Shown here: piece after piece, positions 21,299-38,632 of the stretch
Position numbering within the stretch: position 1 is the first letter of the stretch
How the letters are laid out: the number at the start of each line of letters is the position of its first letter
Virus record (IMG/VR): IMGVR_UViG_3300045988_170943
Location: 320,001 to 384,000 of that record
Length of the DNA: 64,000 nt
Source of the DNA: a virus
Strand: one strand, 5' to 3'
Made by a program: the position numbers and the translations under genes
Notes under the pieces: generated by a model
Database searches by the model: none
Told to the model about the DNA's origin: nothing
The model's input: only the letters and a program-made list of their open reading frames with translations

Positions 21299-21371
21299 CG
21301 GCGTGTAGCGCAGTTTGGTAGCGCACCTGTTTCGGGAACAGGGGCCACAGGTTCAAATCCTGTTACGCCGA
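21299..21371 (+). tRNA. tRNA-Pro(CGG)
   Basis: Cloverleaf: 7-bp acceptor, D arm gcgc/gcgc, anticodon loop ttCGGga, T arm acagg-ttcaaat-cctgt. No encoded CCA. Confidence 0.8.
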
Positions 21372-21425
21372 CGACGAGAACACTAAAAGGCGTCAACAAG
21401 CATGACAACAAGTGCTCTCACAAAT

Positions 21426-21510
21426 GTCACGGTAAAGCGTAACTGGTAGCGCGCCGGTCTGTAAAACCGGTCTGAAAGGTCTGTGGGTTCAAGTCCCACC
21501 CGTGGCACCA
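21426..21510 (+). tRNA. tRNA-Tyr(GUA), type II, CCA encoded
   Basis: Anticodon arm ccggt-ctGTAaa-accgg, long variable arm, T arm gtggg-ttcaagt-cccac, 3' ...gtggcACCA. Confidence 0.7.
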
Positions 21511-21511
21511 T

Positions 21512-21585
21512 TCTCCTGTAGTTTAATGGCAAAACAGGTGACTGTTAATCACTCATTTCAGGTTCGAATCCTGGCGGGAGAGCCA
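21512..21585 (+). tRNA. tRNA-Asn(GUU), CCA encoded
   Basis: D arm gttt/aaac, anticodon arm ggtga-ctGTTaa-tcact, T arm tcagg-ttcgaat-cctgg, acceptor tctcctg/cgggaga. Confidence 0.75.
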
Positions 21586-21649
21586 ATTACGAAACACAAG
21601 TTGCGGCACAACCTTCAACAAAATACAGGAACACGTGCCTACAACAAAT

Positions 21650-21732
21650 GCTCTTGTGGCGAAATGGTATACGCAGCAGACTTAAAATCTGTCTCCCTTG
21701 CGGGATTAAGGGTTCGAGTCCCTTCAGGAGCA
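21650..21732 (+). tRNA. tRNA-Leu(UAA), type II
   Basis: Anticodon arm gcaga-ctTAAaa-tctgt, long variable arm, T arm aaggg-ttcgagt-ccctt. Confidence 0.75.
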
Positions 21733-21734
21733 CG

Positions 21735-21819
21735 GTGTATGTGGTGGAATAGGTATACACACCAGGTTGTGGCCCTGGGTCCATATGGACACATGCGGGT
21801 TCGATCCCCGTCATACACC
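21735..21819 (+). tRNA. tRNA with GUG anticodon (His-like) carrying a long variable hairpin
   Basis: Acceptor gtgtatg/catacac perfect. Anticodon arm ccagg-ttGTGgc-cctgg. Extra hairpin gtccatatggac. T arm gcggg-ttcgatc-cccgt. The class-II-like arm is atypical for His. Confidence 0.55.
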
Positions 21820-22099
21820 CGATGGAAGCAAGTCCGGGCAACTGCTTTCTGACACATGAAGAGACGCGAGTGAAAATCTCGCTGGTTCCTACAATGGAGC
21901 CATAGTTTGTGAATGCAGTGAATGTGTTTGCAACAAGGTGCGACCGCAATCGAGTACATGTGGCGTTGCAACCACACGTACTACTCCTCCGCAAGAGGAG
22001 ACATCCTGCACAACGACTGACAGTACCAAAACACTTCATGCATCAAAAATAGAGATGCCAGAATGGCTACTATAAAGCCTTCAAAGTTGCTTCCACCAC

Positions 22100-22173
22100 T
22101 GGCGTGTGGCGCAGTAGGTTAGCGCGGCACTCTGATAAAGTGCAGGTCGTGAGTTCAAATCTCACCACGCCAA
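22100..22173 (+). tRNA. tRNA-Ile(GAU)
   Basis: Acceptor tggcgtg/cacgcca, D arm gcgc/gcgc, anticodon arm gcact-ctGATaa-agtgc, T arm gtgag-ttcaaat-ctcac. Confidence 0.8.
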
Positions 22174-22174
22174 C

Positions 22175-22258
22175 GGAGAAAATGGTAAAATTGGCTATCC
22201 AACCACCTCGAAAGTGGTGCCTGTAACAGGGCTGGGGGTTCGATTCCCTCTTTCTCCG
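22175..22258 (+). tRNA. tRNA-Ser(CGA), type II
   Basis: Acceptor ggagaaa/tttctcc, anticodon arm accac-ctCGAaa-gtggt, long variable arm gcctgtaacagggc, T arm ggggg-ttcgatt-ccctc. Confidence 0.75.
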
Positions 22259-22319
22259 CCGTGAATGAGTTGTCAGTAAGTGGCTTAATGACGTCATTTT
22301 GATAGGTACATTCATCAAT

Positions 22320-22410
22320 GCCCATGTAGTTCAATTGGACAGAACACTCCGCTACGGACGGAGAGGGAGCCGAAAGGCCATTGGGGGTTCAAGTCCCTCC
22401 ATGGGCACCA
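22320..22410 (+). tRNA. tRNA-Arg(ACG) with extended variable region, CCA encoded
   Basis: Acceptor gcccatg/catgggc, D arm gttc/gaac, anticodon arm ctccg-ctACGga-cggag, 19-nt variable region, T arm, ACCA. Confidence 0.65.
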
Positions 22411-22417
22411 CAACAAT

Positions 22418-36292: not shown

Positions 36293-36431
36293 GTAGGTGA
36301 GTAAGGGGCCGGTAAGGACACAGTTACGATTGAACCTTTCAGGTCGCCTCCCACTGTGTGACACTTGATGCCATTAAGTGTCACCAAACCTCTTGTGGAT
36401 GACACTTAAACACTTAAGGTGCCACCACGTT

Positions 36432-36506
36432 GCCCGGCTAGTTTAGTGGTCAAAACGCTTCCTCGGTAAGGAAGAGATGCCAGTTCGATTCTGGTGCTGG
36501 GCTCCA
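36432..36506 (+). tRNA. tRNA-Thr(GGU), CCA encoded
   Basis: Acceptor gcccggc/gctgggc, D arm gttt/aaac, anticodon arm cttcc-tcGGTaa-ggaag, T arm gccag-ttcgatt-ctggt, TCCA. Confidence 0.8.
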
Positions 36507-36586
36507 GTATCTCACCCCCATACACACCCCTGGCCCGCGCGGTCTCATGCCACCTCTTTCCGGGGTAGCAGGCTTTGTGTGGGGTA

Positions 36587-36662
36587 AAGGTACGCTGCCG
36601 GATTAGTTCAACTGGCTAGAACGGTCGTCTCGTAAGCGACAGGAGCGGGTTCGAGTCCCACA
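36587..36662 (+). tRNA. tRNA-Thr(CGU), CCA encoded
   Basis: Acceptor gccggat/attcggc, D arm gttc/gaac, anticodon arm gtcgt-ctCGTaa-gcgac, T arm, TCCA. Confidence 0.8.
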
Positions 36663-36831
36663 TTCGGCTCCACATTGTTCTCCCGGCCTCTTCATTGTGG
36701 AAGGGCCGGTTTTGTTGTTTCTTGTATTCTCGTGGGCGACATCGGGTTGCTGTTACTGTCTTGCCCGACCTAGCGAAAGTATCGTGTAGAGGCGTCTTGG
36801 GCGCTTAGGTCTTTGCCTGTCTGCTATTCCA

Positions 36832-37647
36832 GTGCGTAAAGCAAGCATGTGGACAGATGGGACACGCCTAGTTATGGATACTGTGAAGCCGGTCAGTTAC
36901 AACGTGACCACCCCAGACAGGTGTGATCTACCGGCATGGTACCTGCCACTGATGCCATACGCTCTGAAGGCGTGTTTTGTTGTATCCAAGCATGAGGACG
37001 TAGACTCGTCGTTCTACTATGTGACAGCACCCGACAGGAACCTCTGGGATCCGGTGTTCTCCACCCTCACTGAGACTGTGGACTTCCTGAGACGTTACGA
37101 CACTGGCTTCTACCTGGACAACTCCTGTGGCAGAAGGGAACAGGGGACCTTCCTGGACTGGTCGGATTATGGGCGCATCCAGGCTGTTCGCCACCGCACC
37201 GCATGGTTCACGCAACGTATTGCCTGCCAGTACGTTATCAACCCGGAGGACTATCGGGCGTCCAGTGACTTTGTAAGGAATCACCCAGCCTTATGGAGGC
37301 TGCGGGCACCATCCACAAGGATCAACACGGTCTCGGCTGTCTCACTCCCCACCGCTGACCCAATCCTCATCCATGAGACCAACGACGGGCTTCATACTGC
37401 GGGTATTACTGAGTTGGCTGCACTGGAGTCGGCGGTGATGCTGGGTAGTGGCCTGTGTGCCAGTGACATACCATCTGGGGTAGGTGTTACCGCTGAGGAT
37501 GCTGTGACAGGTCTAGCGGCAAACATGGCGGCCGTGTTCGACCATGAGGGTAACCTACAGAATGTAGTAGAGGCTCGACCTGTCCACCCCTCTGCTGCCA
37601 GCGGTTTGATGTCAGGATCACGCACAAGGCGACATCAAGTCGGGTAG
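36832..37647 (+). CDS. hypothetical protein
   Basis: 271-aa ORF with no recognisable motif. Confidence 0.4.
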   Translation: MRKASMWTDGTRLVMDTVKPVSYNVTTPDRCDLPAWYLPLMPYALKACFVVSKHEDVDSSFYYVTAPDRNLWDPVFSTLTETVDFLRRYDTGFYLDNSCGRREQGTFLDWSDYGRIQAVRHRTAWFTQRIACQYVINPEDYRASSDFVRNHPALWRLRAPSTRINTVSAVSLPTADPILIHETNDGLHTAGITELAALESAVMLGSGLCASDIPSGVGVTAEDAVTGLAANMAAVFDHEGNLQNVVEARPVHPSAASGLMSGSRTRRHQVG

Positions 37648-37688
37648 CGGGCGGGCGGTAACAGGAACAAACAAGGTAAGGGGCACAA

Positions 37689-38156
37689 GTGGACGCCAGA
37701 AGAAACGGGGTTATCACCTGGGACCAGATGTTCATGAGGTTCGCTCAGGTCGCTGCGCTGCGATCCAAAGACCCTAGCACACAGGTAGGTGCCTGTATCG
37801 CATCGCCCGATAACCGGGTTCTGTCCATCGGATACAACGGGGCACCAGCCGGGTTCGACGACGAGGACTTCCCCTGGGGTAGAGATGCGGAGGACCCCAT
37901 GTGCACAAAGTACCCGTATGTGGTTCACGCTGAGGCTAACGCCATCCTGAACTTCCGTGGGGCCAGGAGTGAGATTGCTGGTTCTCGACTCTATGTGACT
38001 CACTTCTGCTGCAACGAGTGCGCGAAGATGATCGCTCAGACGGACATTAGTGAGGTCATCTACCTGCACGATCATGCCATGTCGAATGGTCTCACCCCGG
38101 CGACACTCACGATCTTCAAGCGCAAAGGTGTCCAGTACAGGCAGATGCAGTCATAG
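37689..38156 (+). CDS. dCMP/cytidine-family deaminase (dCMP deaminase-like)
   Basis: Zinc-binding motifs VVHAEANAI and FCCNECAKMIAQ (HAE...PCxxCA). Confidence 0.8.
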   Translation: MDARRNGVITWDQMFMRFAQVAALRSKDPSTQVGACIASPDNRVLSIGYNGAPAGFDDEDFPWGRDAEDPMCTKYPYVVHAEANAILNFRGARSEIAGSRLYVTHFCCNECAKMIAQTDISEVIYLHDHAMSNGLTPATLTIFKRKGVQYRQMQS

Positions 38157-38263
38157 TTGAGACCATGCGGCAGGGTGGCTGCTGGGGCTCGGTATCTTCA
38201 CTGGTGGGGTTGCATTCAGGGTGTCGAGCCGACTTATGTGACAATAGTCACCTCAAGGGCAAG

Positions 38264-38293
38264 TTGACGCCCTAACGCCCCGCATGGTAGGAT
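38264..38293 (+). promoter_or_regulatory. promoter TTGACG-N18-TAGGAT
   Basis: Consensus hexamers with extended -10 TGG. Confidence 0.55.
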
Positions 38294-38367
38294 GTAGCCA
38301 CAACGTTGAGAACAGGGTTCTGGCACACTCAGGGCGCTGGGTGATATTCCTGCCTCAACTGAATAAT

Positions 38368-38452
38368 GGATGGTTGCCCGAGCGGCCAAAGGGGACAGCC
38401 TTGAAAACTGTAGTGCTGAAAGGCACCGGGGGTTCGAATCCCTCACCATCCG
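38368..38452 (+). tRNA. tRNA-Ser(UGA), type II
   Basis: Acceptor ggatggt/accatcc perfect, D arm ccc/ggg, anticodon arm acag(c)-ctTGAaa-(a)ctgt, variable arm gtgctgaaaggcacc, T arm ggggg-ttcgaat-ccctc. Confidence 0.8.
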
Positions 38453-38504
38453 CGACCAGGTGAACCCCCACGGACGGGTTTGAGCCGGTGTCACAACCAA
38501 ATAT

Positions 38505-38577
38505 GCCGTTTTAGTTCAATTGGTAGAACGCCTGTCTTGTAAACAGGAGGTCATCGGTTCGATCCCGATAAGCGGCT
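38505..38577 (+). tRNA. tRNA-Thr(UGU)
   Basis: Acceptor gccgttt/aagcggc, D arm gttc/gaac, anticodon arm cctgt-ctTGTaa-acagg, T arm atcgg-ttcgatc-ccgat. Confidence 0.8.
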
Positions 38578-38580
38578 CTA

Positions 38581-38632
38581 GGGCGCACGCTCTCTTTCCT
38601 TCCTTATAGTGTGCGCCCGCCCCCCTTTTTTG
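38581..38632 (+). terminator. rho-independent terminator ending the tRNA operon
   Basis: gggcgcac ... gtgcgccc inverted repeat followed by ccccccTTTTTT. Confidence 0.7.

What the first reader, a model, noticed from the sequence alone, without database searches (positions are those of the whole stretch)
21299..38632. About 45-gene tRNA island covering all 20 amino acids, with CCA enzyme, TrmH-like methylase nearby and a tmRNA
I parsed cloverleaves for Pro(CGG, UGG), Tyr(GUA x2), Asn(GUU x2), Leu(UAA, GAG, UAG, CAG, CAA), Ile(GAU, UAU?), Ser(CGA, GCU, UGA), Arg(ACG, CCG, CCU, UCU), Cys, Met(CAU x2), Val(GAC, UAC), Phe, Asp, Glu(CUC, UUC), Lys, Gly(UCC, GCC, CCC), Gln(UUG, CUG), Ala(UGC, GGC), Trp, Thr(GGU, CGU, UGU) and a His-like GUG. 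Most tRNAs lack an encoded CCA, and a CCA-adding enzyme gene is embedded in the array. A tmRNA lies 2 kb downstream. Five Leu isoacceptors is an unusually complete set for a phage.
Basis: seen in the sequence. Interest (0 to 1): 0.6.

Follow-up and report, generated by a model that had tools for sequence, protein, structure and literature searches.

The report
Huge-phage island of translation RNAs
This is a real, near-complete set of 44 transfer RNA genes plus a tmRNA and a CCA-adding enzyme, carried by an uncultivated giant phage; such islands are a known kind, but this one also holds a GOLLD RNA, a small SRP-like RNA, a Ro60 protein and several oddly shaped tRNAs.

Summary
ARAGORN finds 44 tRNA genes (21299-38578, all on the + strand) with 41 different anticodons covering all 20 amino acids, plus a tmRNA at 40207-40583. 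Rfam confirms 42 of the tRNAs and the tmRNA. Only 10 of 44 tRNAs encode CCA, and all end in N73-C74. A class II CCA-adding enzyme (30251-31774) lies inside the array, and a SpoU-family methylase lies 6.3 kb upstream.

Close relatives on 200-400 kb viral contigs carry the same array. This is a member of a known kind: huge phages with up to 67 tRNAs, and actinophages with Ro60 inside a tRNA array.

- A GOLLD RNA at 23730-24122.
- A small SRP-RNA-like hairpin at 34277-34350. Homologues above the Rfam threshold occur in a sister clade, and 11 of 18 pairs covary.
- A Ro60 gene and two GIY-YIG homing endonucleases.
- Five normally short-armed tRNAs (His, Arg-ACG, initiator Met, Lys-UUU, Ile-UAU) that carry long extra arms.
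- A tRNA-Trp with an 8/4 acceptor/T-stem layout.
- Allele replacement at a subset of the tRNAs.

The likely function is phage translation that does not depend on the host tRNA pool and resists attacks on it. The host was not identified, though protein domains point to a Gram-positive.

The parts
14377..15006 (+).
   Evidence: Pfam SpoU_methylase 4.3e-24. NCBIfam RlmB 54.8 bits and TrmH 50.7 bits, both below their cut-offs.
21299..21372 (+). tRNA-Pro(CGG)
   Evidence: ARAGORN; Rfam 62.3 bits
21426..21510 (+). tRNA-Tyr(GUA) copy 1, CCA encoded
   Evidence: ARAGORN; Rfam 42.0 bits
21512..21585 (+). tRNA-Asn(GUU) copy 1, CCA encoded
   Evidence: ARAGORN; Rfam 62.2 bits
21650..21733 (+). tRNA-Leu(UAA)
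   Evidence: ARAGORN; Rfam 59.7 bits
21734..21820 (+). tRNA-His(GUG) with G-1 (21734), C73 and a 16-nt extra arm (86-87 nt)
   Evidence: ARAGORN; Rfam 50.1 bits. The sequence shows G-1. The MFE fold is a cloverleaf with an 8-bp acceptor stem and a V-arm. The V-arm stem changes U-A to C-G in L002/L025/L032.
21821..22099 (+). conserved, strongly structured 279-nt spacer (candidate unknown ncRNA)
   Evidence: 94-98% identical in relatives; folding z = -4.4
22100..22174 (+). tRNA-Ile(GAU)
   Evidence: ARAGORN; Rfam 71.5 bits
22175..22260 (+). tRNA-Ser(CGA)
   Evidence: ARAGORN; Rfam 31.0 bits
22320..22410 (+). tRNA-Arg(ACG) with an extra arm (91 nt; GCC-GAAA-GGC hairpin), A20, A73, CCA encoded
   Evidence: ARAGORN; Rfam 58.8 bits; fold; conserved in all relatives
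22418..22491 (+). tRNA-Arg(CCG)
   Evidence: ARAGORN; Rfam 52.5 bits
22509..22580 (+). tRNA-Cys(GCA)
   Evidence: ARAGORN; Rfam 59.4 bits
22581..22678 (+). initiator-type tRNA-Met(CAU) with a 27-nt extra arm (98 nt)
   Evidence: ARAGORN; Rfam 43.9 bits. Read from the sequence: 1:72 mismatch, A11:U24, and three G-C pairs at the base of the anticodon stem. Relatives carry either this allele or 76-78-nt alleles.
22972..23045 (+). tRNA-Val(GAC)
   Evidence: ARAGORN; Rfam 66.6 bits
23046..23129 (+). tRNA-Ser(GGA)
   Evidence: ARAGORN. Rfam 25.8 bits here, below GA, and 33.2 bits in relatives.
23307..23380 (+). tRNA-Phe(GAA), preceded by two TTGACA-18-TAnnnT promoter-like sites (23187-23216, 23237-23266)
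   Evidence: ARAGORN; Rfam 68.4 bits; promoter scan
23381..24301 (+). GOLLD RNA locus. The conserved 3' domain matches Rfam at 23730-24122; a structured 5' part lies at 23381-23729.
   Evidence: RF02032: 147.5 bits (GA 150), E 1e-39 to 4e-41, full model 1-416. Relatives score 140-146 bits. 96-99% conserved. The 5' part folds with z = -4.2.
24302..24377 (+). tRNA-Asp(GUC)
   Evidence: ARAGORN; Rfam 65.4 bits; 87% identical to Glu(CUC)
24414..24487 (+). tRNA-Asn(GUU) copy 2
   Evidence: ARAGORN; Rfam 65.9 bits
24641..24732 (+). tRNA-Ser(GCU), CCA encoded
   Evidence: ARAGORN; Rfam 50.4 bits
24760..24835 (+). tRNA-Glu(CUC)
   Evidence: ARAGORN; Rfam 62.0 bits
25320..25411 (+). tRNA-Lys(UUU) with a 23-nt extra arm (92 nt)
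   Evidence: ARAGORN; Rfam 63.4 bits; fold. Alleles of 92, 90, 76 and 74 nt occur in relatives, and the arm stem differs (GGUC/GACC versus GGC/GCC). 78% identical to Ile(UAU).
25442..26155 (+). GIY-YIG homing-endonuclease-like gene 1
   Evidence: Pfam GIY-YIG 4.2e-7 plus HTH_7; NCBIfam group I intron endonuclease, sub-threshold; present in relatives
26141..26214 (+). tRNA-Gly(UCC), CCA encoded
   Evidence: ARAGORN; Rfam 61.7 bits
26408..26481 (+). tRNA-Lys(CUU)
   Evidence: ARAGORN; Rfam 54.5 bits
26737..27366 (+). GIY-YIG homing-endonuclease-like gene 2, an insertion specific to this window
   Evidence: Pfam GIY-YIG 5.9e-10. Relatives give only 38-47% paralogous matches to gene 1. In relatives the Lys(CUU)-Pro(UGG) spacing is about 180 nt.
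27367..27442 (+). tRNA-Pro(UGG)
   Evidence: ARAGORN; Rfam 62.4 bits
27555..27623 (+). degenerate tRNA-like element
   Evidence: Rfam tRNA 25.9 bits here and 30.2 bits in L001/L002; ARAGORN finds it only at a lowered threshold
27636..27720 (+). tRNA-Tyr(GUA) copy 2
   Evidence: ARAGORN; Rfam 49.7 bits
27838..27911 (+). tRNA-Ala(UGC), G3:U70
   Evidence: ARAGORN; Rfam 63.5 bits
28264..28339 (+). tRNA-Val(UAC), CCA encoded
   Evidence: ARAGORN; Rfam 66.7 bits; an 80-nt allele occurs in relatives
28348..28420 (+). tRNA-Met(CAU), elongator type (an Ile2-type tRNA is not excluded)
   Evidence: ARAGORN; Rfam 64.1 bits
28425..28496 (+). tRNA-Gln(UUG)
   Evidence: ARAGORN; Rfam 53.0 bits
28538..28610 (+). 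tRNA-Gln(CUG)
   Evidence: ARAGORN; Rfam 56.7 bits
28990..29062 (+). tRNA-Gly(GCC)
   Evidence: ARAGORN; Rfam 52.3 bits
29191..29267 (+). tRNA-Trp(CCA) with an 8-bp acceptor stem, 4-bp T stem, one-nucleotide linker and 6-bp anticodon stem
   Evidence: ARAGORN. It scores on the tRNA-Sec model at 35.3 bits, and 41.8-45.3 bits in relatives. Fold. Across 9 alleles 100% of cells pair, and pairs 8:68 and 32:42 change on both sides.
29268..29660 (+). window-specific, G+T-rich, highly structured 393-nt insertion of unknown nature
   Evidence: no homologue in any fetched locus or elsewhere in the window; folding z = -5.5
29661..29734 (+). tRNA-Ala(GGC)
   Evidence: ARAGORN; Rfam 59.6 bits
30251..31774 (+). 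class II tRNA nucleotidyltransferase (CCA-adding enzyme type)
   Evidence: Pfam PolyA_pol head 1.8e-19; NCBIfam CCA tRNA nucleotidyltransferase 131.5 bits, below its cut-off; GGAVRD, DIDIE, RRD and EDPLR motifs; 81-87% identical in relatives
32001..32074 (+). tRNA-Gly(CCC)
   Evidence: ARAGORN; Rfam 70.3 bits
32075..32160 (+). tRNA-Leu(GAG)
   Evidence: ARAGORN; Rfam 54.8 bits
32161..32595 (+). conserved structured spacer upstream of Ro60, with a promoter-like TTGACA at 32162 and a T-arm-like hairpin at 32217-32233. It is a candidate Ro60 partner RNA, not demonstrated.
   Evidence: 92-98% conserved; z = -4.2; only a T-arm match and no YrlA match
32596..34197 (+). Ro60 orthologue (TROVE plus vWA)
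   Evidence: Pfam TROVE 4e-9 and vWA_Ro60 1.9e-6; 34-39% identical over its full length to 'Ro-like RNA binding protein' of actinophages
34237..34266 (+). promoter-like site TTGACA-18-TAGAGT in front of the SRP-like RNA
   Evidence: promoter scan; conserved in L001/L002
34277..34350 (+). small SRP (4.5S) RNA-like hairpin abutting tRNA-Leu(UAG)
   Evidence: RF00169: 37.1 bits (GA 40), E 1e-4 over 22 kb. Conserved in relatives. Sister-clade homologues score 42.7 and 40.4 bits, above GA. 11 of 18 pairs change on both sides.
34351..34434 (+). tRNA-Leu(UAG), CCA encoded
   Evidence: ARAGORN; Rfam 54.0 bits
34511..34594 (+). tRNA-Leu(CAG)
   Evidence: ARAGORN; Rfam 52.5 bits
34595..34896 (+). conserved structured spacer with promoter-like site 34626-34655 and a T-arm-like hairpin at about 34825-34843 (candidate ncRNA)
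   Evidence: 93-97% conserved; z = -3.9 to -4.5; promoter scan
34897..34972 (+). tRNA-Glu(UUC), CCA encoded
   Evidence: ARAGORN; Rfam 58.3 bits
35047..35128 (+). tRNA-Leu(CAA)
   Evidence: ARAGORN; Rfam 51.9 bits
35261..35333 (+). tRNA-Arg(CCU)
   Evidence: ARAGORN; Rfam 69.8 bits
35383..35456 (+). tRNA-Arg(UCU)
   Evidence: ARAGORN; Rfam 61.8 bits
35489..35582 (+). tRNA-Ile(UAU) with a 24-nt extra arm (94 nt)
   Evidence: ARAGORN; Rfam 57.7 bits; fold. Homologous 93-nt tRNA-Ile(UAU) genes occur in cultured T5-like Vibrio phages such as Brizo.
35625..36176 (+). conserved ORF of unknown function (183 aa)
   Evidence: no Pfam, PHROG or PDB match; 74-84% identical in relatives
36432..36506 (+). 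tRNA-Thr(GGU), CCA encoded
   Evidence: ARAGORN; Rfam 60.7 bits
36597..36672 (+). tRNA-Thr(CGU), CCA encoded
   Evidence: ARAGORN; Rfam 55.7 bits
36832..37647 (+). conserved ORF of unknown function (271 aa)
   Evidence: no Pfam, PHROG, NCBIfam or PDB match; 80-82% identical in relatives
37689..38156 (+). dCMP deaminase (not a tRNA adenosine deaminase)
   Evidence: Pfam dCMP_cyt_deam_1 4.8e-23; PHROG dCMP deaminase 2.2e-44
38368..38453 (+). tRNA-Ser(UGA)
   Evidence: ARAGORN; Rfam 48.3 bits
38505..38578 (+). tRNA-Thr(UGU)
   Evidence: ARAGORN; Rfam 71.6 bits
38816..39355 (+). MazG-like nucleotide pyrophosphohydrolase
   Evidence: Pfam PRA-PH 1.3e-7; PHROG 1.8e-25
39352..40110 (+). conserved ORF of unknown function directly upstream of the tmRNA (252 aa)
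   Evidence: no family match; 97-99% identical in relatives and about 31% in the sister clade at the same position
40164..40193 (+). promoter-like site TTGACA-18-TATATT in front of the tmRNA
   Evidence: promoter scan
40207..40585 (+). tmRNA: tag ANSDNFALAA, G3:U70, ends A73-C74 with no encoded CCA
   Evidence: ARAGORN; Rfam RF00023 106 bits (GA 47); sequence; same tag in relatives

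Best explanation
The region is the stable-RNA island of an uncultivated huge phage with a genome of roughly 400 kb. Its host is probably Gram-positive, possibly an actinobacterium.

Shown:
- There are 44 tRNA genes with 41 anticodons, covering all 20 amino acids. They can read all 61 sense codons if tRNA-Pro(UGG) reads all four CCN codons.
- A tmRNA, a GOLLD RNA and a small SRP-like RNA sit on the same strand.
- Many near-consensus TTGACA-18-TAnnnT promoter-like sites lie between them.
- Every tRNA and the tmRNA is encoded up to N73-C74, and only 10 carry the full CCA.
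- Six pairs of genes abut with 0-1 nt between them.

Inferred:
- The genes are transcribed by the host sigma-70-type polymerase as multi-gene precursors.
- RNase P cutting at the 5' end of a downstream tRNA leaves the upstream tRNA ending in C74.
- The phage's own class II nucleotidyltransferase then completes or repairs the CCA end.
- The SpoU methylase may modify these RNAs, and Ro60 may act in quality control or decay of misfolded RNAs.

Inferred purpose: phage protein synthesis becomes largely independent of the host tRNA pool. This holds whether that pool is ill-matched to phage codons, run down by host shut-off, or attacked by tRNA-cleaving or tRNA-tail-damaging defence nucleases.

The non-standard tRNA shapes, together with the replacement of whole alleles at a subset of tRNAs among otherwise near-identical phages, fit escape from such nucleases. 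That link is a hypothesis. The non-standard shapes are extra arms on His, Arg-ACG, initiator Met, Lys-UUU and Ile-UAU, and an 8/4 Trp.
For: - Gene calls by two independent methods.
- All genes end in N73-C74, 10 of 44 encode CCA, and some pairs abut.
- NTase domain and motifs.
- 21 promoter-like sites against 13.9 expected; all eight that score at least 10 of 12 on the + strand have a perfect or near-perfect TTGACA and an 18-nt spacer.
- The same 44 + 1 array, in the same order, lies on viral contigs of 201-394 kb and metagenome contigs up to 400 kb.
- A sister clade keeps the order CCA enzyme, dCMP deaminase, MazG, unknown ORF, tmRNA.
- Arthrobacter phage Atuin has a Ro-like gene inside a tRNA array beside MazG, RNR and DnaE.
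- The phage uses all 61 codons, and its tRNA set includes decoders of its own rarest codons: UUA is 1% of Leu and AUA is 8% of Ile.
- The odd tRNAs keep their identity marks: G-1:C73 for His; A20 and A73 for Arg; a 1:72 mismatch, A11:U24 and three G-C pairs for the initiator.
- Their extra-arm stems are kept through compensatory or length changes. The Trp 8/4 helices pair in 100% of cells.
- Bimodal allele divergence: nine tRNAs have minimum identity 0.59-0.80 while most are at least 0.94.
- Literature: huge phages carry up to 67 tRNAs and tmRNAs (PMC7162821). Phage tRNAs rescue cells from anticodon nucleases and resist them through changes in sequence or stem length (PMC10264068, PMC12445682, PMC11555353). 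A defence nuclease that cuts tRNA 3' tails is known (PMC12851939).
Against: - No expression, processing or charging data exist.
- The host is unknown, so neither codon mismatch nor host defences could be examined.
- No virion gene lies in the window.
- The CCA enzyme scores below the NCBIfam equivalog cut-offs and could be a CC-adding, A-adding or poly(A)-type relative.
- Five of the nine hypervariable tRNAs sit at 25.3-28.3 kb next to homing-endonuclease genes. Endonuclease-driven gene conversion could explain allele replacement without any selection by defence systems.
- The extra arms of Arg-ACG and Ile-UAU hardly vary, so they give no covariation support.
- No tRNA-Pro(GGG) is present, although CCC is the commonest Pro codon.
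Confidence: 0.7

Rival explanations
1. Codon compensation only. The tRNAs simply top up decoders for codons that the phage uses more than its host, and the odd shapes are incidental.
For: This is the classical explanation for phage tRNAs. The phage has a marked C-ending codon bias with GC3 of 0.69. tRNA number scales with genome size in huge phages (PMC7162821).
Against: The set is essentially complete rather than selective. It includes decoders for the phage's own rarest codons, UUA and AUA, and lacks tRNA-Pro(GGG) for its commonest Pro codon, CCC. The duplicated genes, Tyr and Asn, are not for especially frequent residues. Host codon usage is unknown, so this rival could not be tested directly.
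Confidence: 0.25
2. Not a phage. The island belongs to a bacterial chromosome or megaplasmid carrying a horizontally acquired tRNA array, like the Mycobacterium tRNA arrays that also contain GOLLD and an endonuclease gene.
For: No virion gene lies in the 64-kb window. Mycobacterium arrays of 32-37 tRNAs with GOLLD and HNH genes are described (PMC6582537). Large plasmids with translation gene sets have been noted (PMC7162821).
Against: Relatives are IMG/VR viral contigs. The gene content is phage-like: two RNRs, Dda-like and SNF2 helicases, DnaE fragments, MazG, dCMP deaminase, homing endonucleases and cell-wall hydrolases. The Ro60-in-tRNA-array layout matches a cultured phage. There is no near match in 72,556 plasmids.
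Confidence: 0.07
3. The extra arms and allele swaps are neutral by-products. The variable region is the one place where a tRNA tolerates insertions, and gene conversion started by homing endonucleases shuffles alleles between co-infecting phages.
For: Long-arm and normal-length alleles of Lys-UUU, initiator Met and Val-UAC coexist in near-identical genomes. The variable tRNAs cluster around the two GIY-YIG genes, one of which is itself a window-specific insertion. Paralogue pairs such as Lys-UUU/Ile-UAU (78%) and Asp/Glu (87%) show active duplication and anticodon shifts.
Against: The arms form stable hairpins kept by compensatory changes. The long-arm Ile(UAU) type is shared with distant cultured Vibrio phages, which implies long-term retention. 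The variable initiator Met, Cys, Ser-GCU and Thr-GGU genes are not next to an endonuclease gene.
Confidence: 0.3
4. The extra-arm tRNAs are not ordinary decoders. The long arm redirects charging (for example by SerRS or LeuRS), or it makes them decoys, primers or ligands for Ro60 or GOLLD.
For: Long arms are the main recognition feature of class II tRNAs. Allo-tRNAs with long arms and non-Ser anticodons, often UAU, have been described (PMC5389517). His shares its D-arm type with the Leu tRNAs.
Against: Each of them is the island's only gene for its anticodon, so the 'complete set' depends on them. Their cognate identity elements are intact. They have the 7/5 layout (8/5 for His), not the allo-tRNA layout.
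Confidence: 0.1

Closest known systems
tRNA and tmRNA complements of huge phages (Al-Shayeb et al. 2020, PMC7162821)
   Same: Genome larger than 200 kb, dozens of tRNAs distinct from host ones, a tmRNA, and tRNA-related enzymes.
   Different: Here 41 anticodons suffice for all sense codons. The island also contains a GOLLD RNA, an SRP-like RNA, Ro60, extra-arm class I tRNAs and an 8/4 Trp. No aminoacyl-tRNA synthetase or SmpB is seen in this window.
Large actinophages with a Ro-like protein inside the tRNA array (Arthrobacter phage Atuin, Streptomyces phages BRock and GiJojo)
   Same: The Ro60 gene is flanked on both sides by tRNA genes on the same strand, with MazG, ribonucleotide reductase and DnaE-like genes nearby.
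   Different: Ro60 is only 34-39% identical and there is no DNA similarity. In the Atuin stretch inspected there are about 25 tRNAs, all of normal length, and no annotated tmRNA, CCA enzyme, GOLLD or SRP RNA.
GOLLD RNA near phage and Mycobacterium tRNA islands (PMC12286853, PMC6582537)
   Same: A GOLLD homologue flanked by tRNA genes, with an endonuclease gene nearby. A tRNA-like element inside GOLLD is hinted at by low-threshold ARAGORN.
   Different: The score is 2.5 bits under the Rfam gathering threshold. blastn finds no similarity to any INPHARED phage, so this is a divergent member.
Phage T4 tRNA cluster maturation (textbook knowledge, not tested here)
   Same: Closely spaced tRNA genes, some lacking CCA, matured by RNase P plus CCA addition.
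   Different: T4 relies on the host nucleotidyltransferase, whereas this phage encodes its own. It has 44 genes against T4's 8.
93-nt tRNA-Ile(UAU) of T5-like Vibrio phages (Thalassavirus, e.g. Brizo)
   Same: UAU anticodon, 7/5 cloverleaf, and a variable region of about 22-24 nt. Identity is 75-78% over more than 80% of the length with the Ile(UAU) and Lys(UUU) genes here.
   Different: In this phage the extra arm also occurs on Lys-UUU, His, Arg-ACG and the initiator. For Arg-ACG, His and the initiator, no INPHARED phage matches across the arm. The only full-length matches to Lys-UUU are the Vibrio tRNA-Ile(UAU) genes.
8/4 tRNAs and allo-tRNAs (Mukai et al. 2017, PMC5389517)
   Same: A 12-bp acceptor/T branch split 8/4, detected because it scores on the tRNA-Sec model. 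That paper reports 8/4 Ser and His tRNAs in phages.
   Different: Here the 8/4 tRNA has a Trp anticodon, a short variable loop and discriminator G. Trp is not mentioned in that paper.
Bacterial 4.5S / small SRP RNA (RF00169)
   Same: A hairpin with a GGAA tetraloop and the CAGG / AGCA internal-loop motifs of domain IV. The stems covary.
   Different: It is only 74 nt, scores 37.1 bits (GA 40), is phage-borne, and abuts a tRNA gene. The searched literature holds no report of a phage-encoded SRP RNA gene.

Membership tests
tRNA (RF00005) | Cloverleaf with a 7-nt anticodon loop, a T-loop and a paired acceptor stem, recognised by independent predictors | tested here: met
   ARAGORN. Rfam places 42 above GA. 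Ser(GGA) is above GA in relatives. Trp pairs fully in an 8/4 layout.
tRNA (functional decoder) | Expression, 5'/3' maturation, aminoacylation | not testable with these tools
   Only promoter-like sites and conservation are available.
tmRNA (RF00023) | tRNA-Ala-like domain with G3:U70, plus an internal tag reading frame ending in ALAA and a stop | tested here: met
   106 bits against GA 47. ARAGORN reads the tag ANSDNFALAA. G3:U70 is read from the sequence.
tmRNA system | Partner protein SmpB | tested here: inconclusive
   None of the window ORFs scanned against Pfam, PHROG or NCBIfam matches SmpB. Host SmpB, or a gene elsewhere in the roughly 400-kb genome, remains possible.
Class II CCA-adding enzyme | Pol-beta NTase head with GGxVRD, DxD and RRD motifs and the EDxxR nucleotide-selecting motif | tested here: met
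   Pfam PF01743 at 1.8e-19. GGAVRD, DIDIE, ERRDF and EDPLR are in the translation.
Class II CCA-adding enzyme | Score above the curated equivalog cut-off, or demonstrated C-C-A addition as opposed to CC-adding, A-adding or poly(A) activity | tested here: not met
   The best NCBIfam hit is CCA tRNA nucleotidyltransferase at 131.5 bits against a cut-off of 290. PcnB scores 100 bits. The activity is untested.
TrmH (tRNA Gm18 methyltransferase) | SpoU/TrmD-fold methylase domain | tested here: met
   PF00588 at 4.3e-24.
TrmH (tRNA Gm18 methyltransferase) | Specific assignment to TrmH rather than RlmB, TrmL or TrmJ | tested here: inconclusive
   RlmB scores 54.8 bits and TrmH 50.7 bits, both far below their cut-offs.
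Ro60 / Rsr | TROVE ring domain followed by a vWA domain | tested here: met
   TROVE 4e-9 and vWA_Ro60 1.9e-6, both above their cut-offs. Full-length matches to phage 'Ro-like RNA binding protein'.
Ro60 / Rsr | Adjacent Y RNA (YrlA-type) on the same strand within 4 kb (PMC4201824) | tested here: not met
   No YrlA match other than a 26-bit hit that overlaps true tRNAs. A conserved structured spacer with a T-arm-like hairpin lies upstream at 32161-32595.
GOLLD RNA (RF02032) | Match to the conserved 3' domain covariance model at or above the gathering score | tested here: inconclusive
   147.5 bits against GA 150, with E about 1e-39 over the full model. Relatives score 140-146 bits. The location next to tRNAs fits the family (PMC12286853).
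Small bacterial SRP RNA (RF00169) | Domain IV hairpin with a GNAR tetraloop and conserved internal loops, at or above the gathering score | tested here: inconclusive
   The window copy scores 37.1 bits against GA 40. Sister-clade copies score 42.7 and 40.4 bits. 11 of 18 pairs are compensatory. Ffh binding is untested.
allo-tRNA / 8/4 tRNA (PMC5389517) | 8-bp acceptor stem plus 4-bp T stem | tested here: met
   Trp(CCA): all 23 pairs form in 9 alleles, and pair 8:68 changes G-C to A-U. The U1-G pair itself never varies.
allo-tRNA / 8/4 tRNA (PMC5389517) | Long variable arm and Ser-type identity | tested here: not met
   The variable loop is 6 nt, the anticodon is CCA and the discriminator is G.
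GIY-YIG homing endonuclease | N-terminal GIY-YIG catalytic domain plus a C-terminal DNA-binding HTH; presence/absence polymorphism | tested here: met
   Pfam GIY-YIG plus HTH_7 in both genes. The second copy is absent from all relatives.

The most novel reading that the evidence does not exclude
The phage carries structurally 'armoured' versions of tRNAs. Class II-like extra arms sit on the initiator, His, Arg-ACG, Lys-UUU and Ile-UAU, and Trp has an 8/4 layout. On this reading the arms are a shape-based way of escaping host tRNA-targeting nucleases, or of marking phage tRNAs for a phage-specific partner such as Ro60 or a GOLLD cage. Together with its own SRP RNA, tmRNA and CCA enzyme, the phage would then bring nearly the whole set of the cell's small translation RNAs. 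Extra arms as an anti-defence device, and a phage-encoded SRP RNA, were not described in the literature I could search.
Probability: 0.2. Interest if true: 0.75.

Novelty: new variant of a known kind. Interest (0 to 1): 0.5.

Why it matters
Large tRNA arrays in giant phages are known, so the island as reported is not a surprise. Its value lies in what it makes testable.

First, natural long-arm and short-arm alleles of the same tRNA (Lys-UUU and the initiator) occur in otherwise near-identical genomes. This is a ready-made comparison for asking whether tRNA shape, and not only anticodon-loop sequence, decides escape from bacterial tRNA-cleaving immunity.

Second, the uniform N73-C74 gene ends next to a phage CCA enzyme suggest a simple two-enzyme maturation or repair route. 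That route bears on defences that damage tRNA 3' ends.

Third, the island places GOLLD (function unknown), Ro60 and an SRP-like RNA in one transcription context with tRNAs. This could help assign functions to GOLLD and to phage Ro60. It also raises the question of whether phages manipulate co-translational protein targeting.

Tried and rejected
- The deaminase at 37689-38156 as a TadA that would edit A34 of tRNA-Arg(ACG): rejected. It is a dCMP deaminase by PHROG (2.2e-44) and Pfam.
- The SRP-like hairpin as the Ro60 Y RNA: rejected. Homologues occur in sister-clade loci where no Ro60 was found in the fetched stretch, and they pass the SRP gathering score.
- YrlA search around Ro60: nothing beyond tRNA-likeness.
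- Short tRNA introns as the cause of the long genes: rejected. The extra bases sit in the variable region and the anticodon loops are intact.
- Host identification failed. NrdD relatives in 185,579 genomes gave no hit, and genomes encoding the same tmRNA tag gave no hit.
- DNA similarity to known phages and plasmids: only tRNA-sized matches. GOLLD gave no blastn match in phages.
- Four conserved island ORFs (35625-36176, 36832-37647, 39352-40110, 40790-41980) gave no Pfam, PHROG, NCBIfam or PDB match.
- The script mis-registered the acceptor ends of the two Ala genes and of Gln(UUG). These were corrected by eye.
- My T-loop regular expression was faulty, so its output is ignored.
- Not run: structure prediction, the large protein-database searches, and tRNAscan-SE (not available).

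Full report
**Observation.** ARAGORN finds 44 tRNA genes between 21299 and 38578, all on the + strand, and a tmRNA at 40207-40583 with the tag ANSDNFALAA. Rfam at curated thresholds finds 42 of these tRNAs (31-72 bits, GA 29) and the tmRNA (106 bits, GA 47).

Two tRNAs are missed by Rfam. Ser(GGA) at 23046-23129 scores 25.8 bits here and 33.2 bits in relatives. Trp(CCA) at 29191-29267 has a non-standard layout and is picked up by the tRNA-Sec model at 35-45 bits.

There are 41 distinct anticodons, with GUA, GUU and CAU each present twice, and all 20 amino acids are covered. By standard wobble rules all sense codons are read, except that CCU and CCC need tRNA-Pro(UGG) to read four ways. This rests on established wobble knowledge and was not tested.

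**CCA ends.** Ten genes encode CCA: Tyr copy 1, Asn copy 1, Arg-ACG, Ser-GCU, Gly-UCC, Val-UAC, Leu-UAG, Glu-UUC, Thr-GGU and Thr-CGU. After correcting three mis-registered cases by eye, every tRNA and also the tmRNA is encoded up to N73-C74. Six pairs abut with 0-1 nt between them: Tyr-Asn, Leu(UAA)-His, Ile-Ser, Cys-Met, Val-Ser and Gly-Leu.

**Proteins in and near the island.**
- 30251-31774 is a class II nucleotidyltransferase. Pfam PolyA_pol head scores 1.8e-19, and the best NCBIfam model is CCA tRNA nucleotidyltransferase at 131.5 bits, below its cut-off. The GGAVRD, DIDIE, RRD and EDPLR motifs are present.
- 14377-15006 is a SpoU-family methylase (4.3e-24). It scores equally on RlmB and TrmH, so 'TrmH-like' is possible but not established.
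- 32596-34197 is a Ro60 orthologue with TROVE and vWA domains. Its best phage matches are 'Ro-like RNA binding proteins' of Streptomyces, Arthrobacter and Gordonia phages at 34-39% identity.
- 25442-26155 and 26737-27366 are GIY-YIG plus HTH homing-endonuclease-like genes. The second is absent from all relatives.
- 37689-38156 is a dCMP deaminase, not a tRNA deaminase.
- 38816-39355 is MazG-like.
- Four conserved ORFs have no detectable family.

A permissive Rfam scan finds three further features.
- A GOLLD RNA at 23730-24122 scores 147.5 bits against GA 150 (E about 1e-39, whole model). It lies in the 921-nt gap between tRNA-Phe and tRNA-Asp. It is 96-99% conserved and scores 140-146 bits in relatives.
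- A 74-nt hairpin at 34277-34350 matches small bacterial SRP RNA at 37.1 bits against GA 40. It has a GGAA tetraloop and the CAGG / AGCA motifs. It is preceded by TTGACA-18-TAGAGT and abuts tRNA-Leu(UAG). In a sister clade the corresponding elements pass the gathering score (42.7 and 40.4 bits) next to a tmRNA or a tRNA. An alignment of the three lineages has compensatory changes in 11 of 18 pairs. Those sister loci show no Ro60 in the stretch fetched, so the hairpin is not a Y RNA.
- Many spacers fold far better than shuffled controls (z below -4). They are 21821-22099, 23381-23729, 29063-29190, 29268-29660, 32161-32595, 34198-34350, 34595-34896, 35129-35260 and 38579-38815. Several are 92-98% conserved, whereas other spacers are 75-85% conserved. 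Low-threshold ARAGORN and Rfam also see degenerate tRNA-like pieces, for example at 27555-27623.

No YrlA-type Y RNA was detected near Ro60.

**Odd tRNAs: extra arms.** Five tRNAs that are normally short-armed carry a hairpin in the variable region:

| tRNA | Length |
|---|---|
| His(GUG) | 86 nt (87 with G-1) |
| Arg(ACG) | 91 nt |
| initiator-type Met(CAU) | 98 nt |
| Lys(UUU) | 92 nt |
| Ile(UAU) | 94 nt |

Their minimum-energy folds are cloverleaves plus an extra arm. Their identity marks are intact:
- His has G-1 at 21734 pairing with C73.
- Arg has A20 and A73.
- The initiator has a 1:72 mismatch, A11:U24 and three G-C pairs above the anticodon loop.

Among relatives the His arm changes U-A to C-G, and the Lys arm changes from GGUC/GACC to GGC/GCC.

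**Odd tRNAs: the 8/4 Trp.** Trp(CCA) folds with an 8-bp acceptor stem, a one-nucleotide linker, a 6-bp anticodon stem and a 4-bp T stem. Across nine alleles 100% of cells pair, and pairs 8:68 and 32:42 change on both sides. The 8/4 reading also restores the N73-C74 end seen in every other gene. 8/4 tRNAs are known in phages for Ser and His (PMC5389517); Trp is not mentioned there.

**How unusual are the extra arms?**
- Ile(UAU) is not unique. Cultured T5-like Vibrio phages such as Brizo have an annotated 93-nt tRNA-Ile(UAU) that aligns over more than 80% of the length at 75-78% identity. It aligns both to Ile(UAU) and to its 78%-identical paralogue Lys(UUU).
- For the initiator, Arg(ACG) and His, no INPHARED phage matches across the arm.
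- In the sister clade the same anticodons have normal lengths.
- I found no paper linking extra arms on class I tRNAs to phage biology. This covers only the searched library.

**Relatives and population structure.** The CCA enzyme retrieves IMG/VR contigs of 201-394 kb and metagenome contigs up to 400 kb, at 81-87% identity. Where the array is complete these carry 42-45 tRNA calls plus the tmRNA. Three of the seven complete arrays compared have exactly the window's 44 genes in the same order, and the other four differ by a few genes.

A sister group at 43-45% identity, on contigs of 300-730 kb, keeps the order CCA enzyme, dCMP deaminase, MazG, unknown ORF, tmRNA.

Within the close clade, allele divergence is bimodal. 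Most tRNAs are at least 94% identical. Nine have minimum identities of 0.59-0.80, including length variants: Ala-UGC, initiator Met, Lys-CUU, Val-UAC, Lys-UUU, Ser-GCU, Cys, Thr-GGU and Pro-UGG. Lys-UUU occurs at 92, 90, 76 and 74 nt, the initiator at 98 and 76-78 nt, and Val-UAC at 74-76 and 80 nt. Five of the nine lie at 25.3-28.3 kb around the two homing-endonuclease genes.

Paralogue pairs with different amino-acid identity point to duplication with anticodon shifts inside the array: Lys-UUU/Ile-UAU at 78% and Asp-GUC/Glu-CUC at 87%.

**Is it a phage, and of what host?** The window has no virion gene, so phage origin is inferred. The inference rests on four points:
- IMG/VR membership of relatives.
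- Gene content: class I and III ribonucleotide reductases, helicases, DnaE PHP fragment, clamp-loader, topoisomerase II, TnpB-like genes and an HNH gene.
- Arthrobacter phage Atuin, where a Ro-like gene sits inside a tRNA array beside MazG, RNR and DnaE.
- The absence of near matches to plasmids.

G5, PASTA and NlpC/P60 domains in neighbouring proteins point to a Gram-positive host. The actinophage affinity of Ro60 hints at Actinobacteria. Two attempts to find the host in 185,579 genomes failed.

**Mechanism.**
- Shown: gene content, orientation, ends and spacing. The promoter scan finds 21 promoter-like sites against 13.9 expected. All eight + strand sites that score at least 10 of 12 have a perfect or near-perfect TTGACA and an 18-nt spacer. 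They include sites in front of tRNA-Phe/GOLLD, the SRP-like RNA and the tmRNA.
- Inferred: the genes are transcribed by host RNA polymerase as multi-gene precursors. RNase P cuts at each 5' end; in the six abutting pairs this leaves the upstream tRNA ending in C74. The phage nucleotidyltransferase then completes CCA on 34 tRNAs and the tmRNA, or repairs damaged ends.
- The phage uses all 61 codons (GC3 0.69). It carries decoders even for its rarest codons, and it lacks tRNA-Pro(GGG) for its commonest Pro codon. This fits general independence from the host tRNA pool better than selective codon compensation, though without the host this is not decisive.
- Phage tRNAs are known to replace host tRNAs cut by defence nucleases, and to resist them through changes in the anticodon arm (PMC10264068, PMC11555353, PMC12445682). 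A defence nuclease that removes tRNA 3' tails is known (PMC12851939).
- The extra arms, the 8/4 Trp and the allele turnover are compatible with that arms race. Endonuclease-driven gene conversion and neutral tolerance of insertions in the variable region explain much of the same pattern.

**Comparison and verdict.** The island belongs to a known kind. Huge phages have up to 67 tRNAs and tmRNAs (PMC7162821). GOLLD is typically found near phage tRNA islands and in Mycobacterium tRNA arrays (PMC12286853, PMC6582537). Ro60 occurs in phages (PMC4201824).

What sets this one apart is the combination in one 20-kb stretch:
- A sense-codon-complete tRNA set.
- A uniform N73-C74 gene architecture together with a resident CCA enzyme.
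- Extra arms on five class I tRNAs, including the initiator.
- An 8/4 tRNA-Trp.
- A phage-borne SRP-like RNA conserved across two clades.

I rate it a new variant of a known kind, of moderate interest. The finding as stated is ordinary for huge phages. The tRNA shape variants and the SRP-like RNA are the parts worth following up.

Noticed in passing
window 23730-24122 (locus 23381-24301): A GOLLD RNA homologue lies between tRNA-Phe and tRNA-Asp. It scores 147.5 bits against GA 150 (E about 1e-39) and is conserved in relatives. blastn finds no similarity to any INPHARED phage, so it is a divergent GOLLD.
   Followed up: partly
window 34277-34350; L004/L040 20239-20331; L005/L035 2194-2280: A small SRP (4.5S) RNA-like gene sits in this phage clade and in a sister clade, always next to a tRNA or the tmRNA. 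The sister copies pass the Rfam threshold, and 11 of 18 pairs covary. I found no report of phage-encoded SRP RNA in the searched literature.
   Followed up: partly
window 21821-22099, 29063-29190, 32161-32595, 34595-34896, 35129-35260, 38579-38815: These spacers fold much better than shuffled controls (z from -3.9 to -5.8). Several are more conserved than neighbouring spacers, and two contain T-arm-like hairpins (32217-32233 and about 34825-34843). They are probably further ncRNAs of unknown class; one may be the missing Ro60 partner.
   Followed up: partly
window 29268-29660: A 393-nt G+T-rich insertion between tRNA-Trp and tRNA-Ala(GGC) is absent from all relatives. It has no homologue among the fetched loci, and its predicted structure is very stable (z = -5.5).
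   Followed up: partly
window 26737-27366: A second GIY-YIG homing-endonuclease gene is present only in this window. The tRNA genes around the two endonuclease genes (25.3-28.3 kb) are the ones with the most divergent alleles among relatives.
   Followed up: partly
window 22679-22971: A 293-nt segment after the initiator tRNA carries a TTGACT-N18-TATAAG promoter-like site. It is present in some relatives (L002, L021, L023, L032) and missing in others (L001, L024, L030). Its presence only partly tracks the long-arm initiator allele.
   Followed up: no
window 42101-43597, 43708-45249 (-), 57090-58619 (-): A DnaE-like ORF of only 498 aa (PHP domain plus the start of the polymerase domain) is followed on the opposite strand by a TnpB/Cas12f-like gene. 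A second TnpB-like gene lies at 57090-58619. The polymerase gene may be split or interrupted.
   Followed up: no
window 11366-12844, 13128-14237, 16466-17389, 7674-8306: This is a cluster of cell-envelope proteins: a four-PASTA-repeat protein, G5 plus NlpC/P60, G5 plus SLT transglycosylase, and a type I signal peptidase. It suggests a Gram-positive host.
   Followed up: partly
window 24302-24377 / 24760-24835 and 25320-25411 / 35489-35582: Pairs of tRNAs for different amino acids are each other's closest paralogues: Asp-GUC/Glu-CUC at 87% and Lys-UUU/Ile-UAU at 78%. This indicates duplication followed by single-base anticodon shifts within the array.
   Followed up: partly
L101 1497-1589 (Vibrio phage Brizo MK895508.1 73081-73173): Cultured T5-like Vibrio phages carry a 93-nt tRNA-Ile(UAU) with a long variable region, annotated simply as tRNA-Ile. 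It is homologous to the long-arm Ile and Lys tRNAs here.
   Followed up: partly
window 1-20000: Strong strand composition bias upstream of the island, with AT skew up to +0.41 and GC skew down to -0.26. G+C drops to 45-48% at 24-28 kb inside the island.
   Followed up: no
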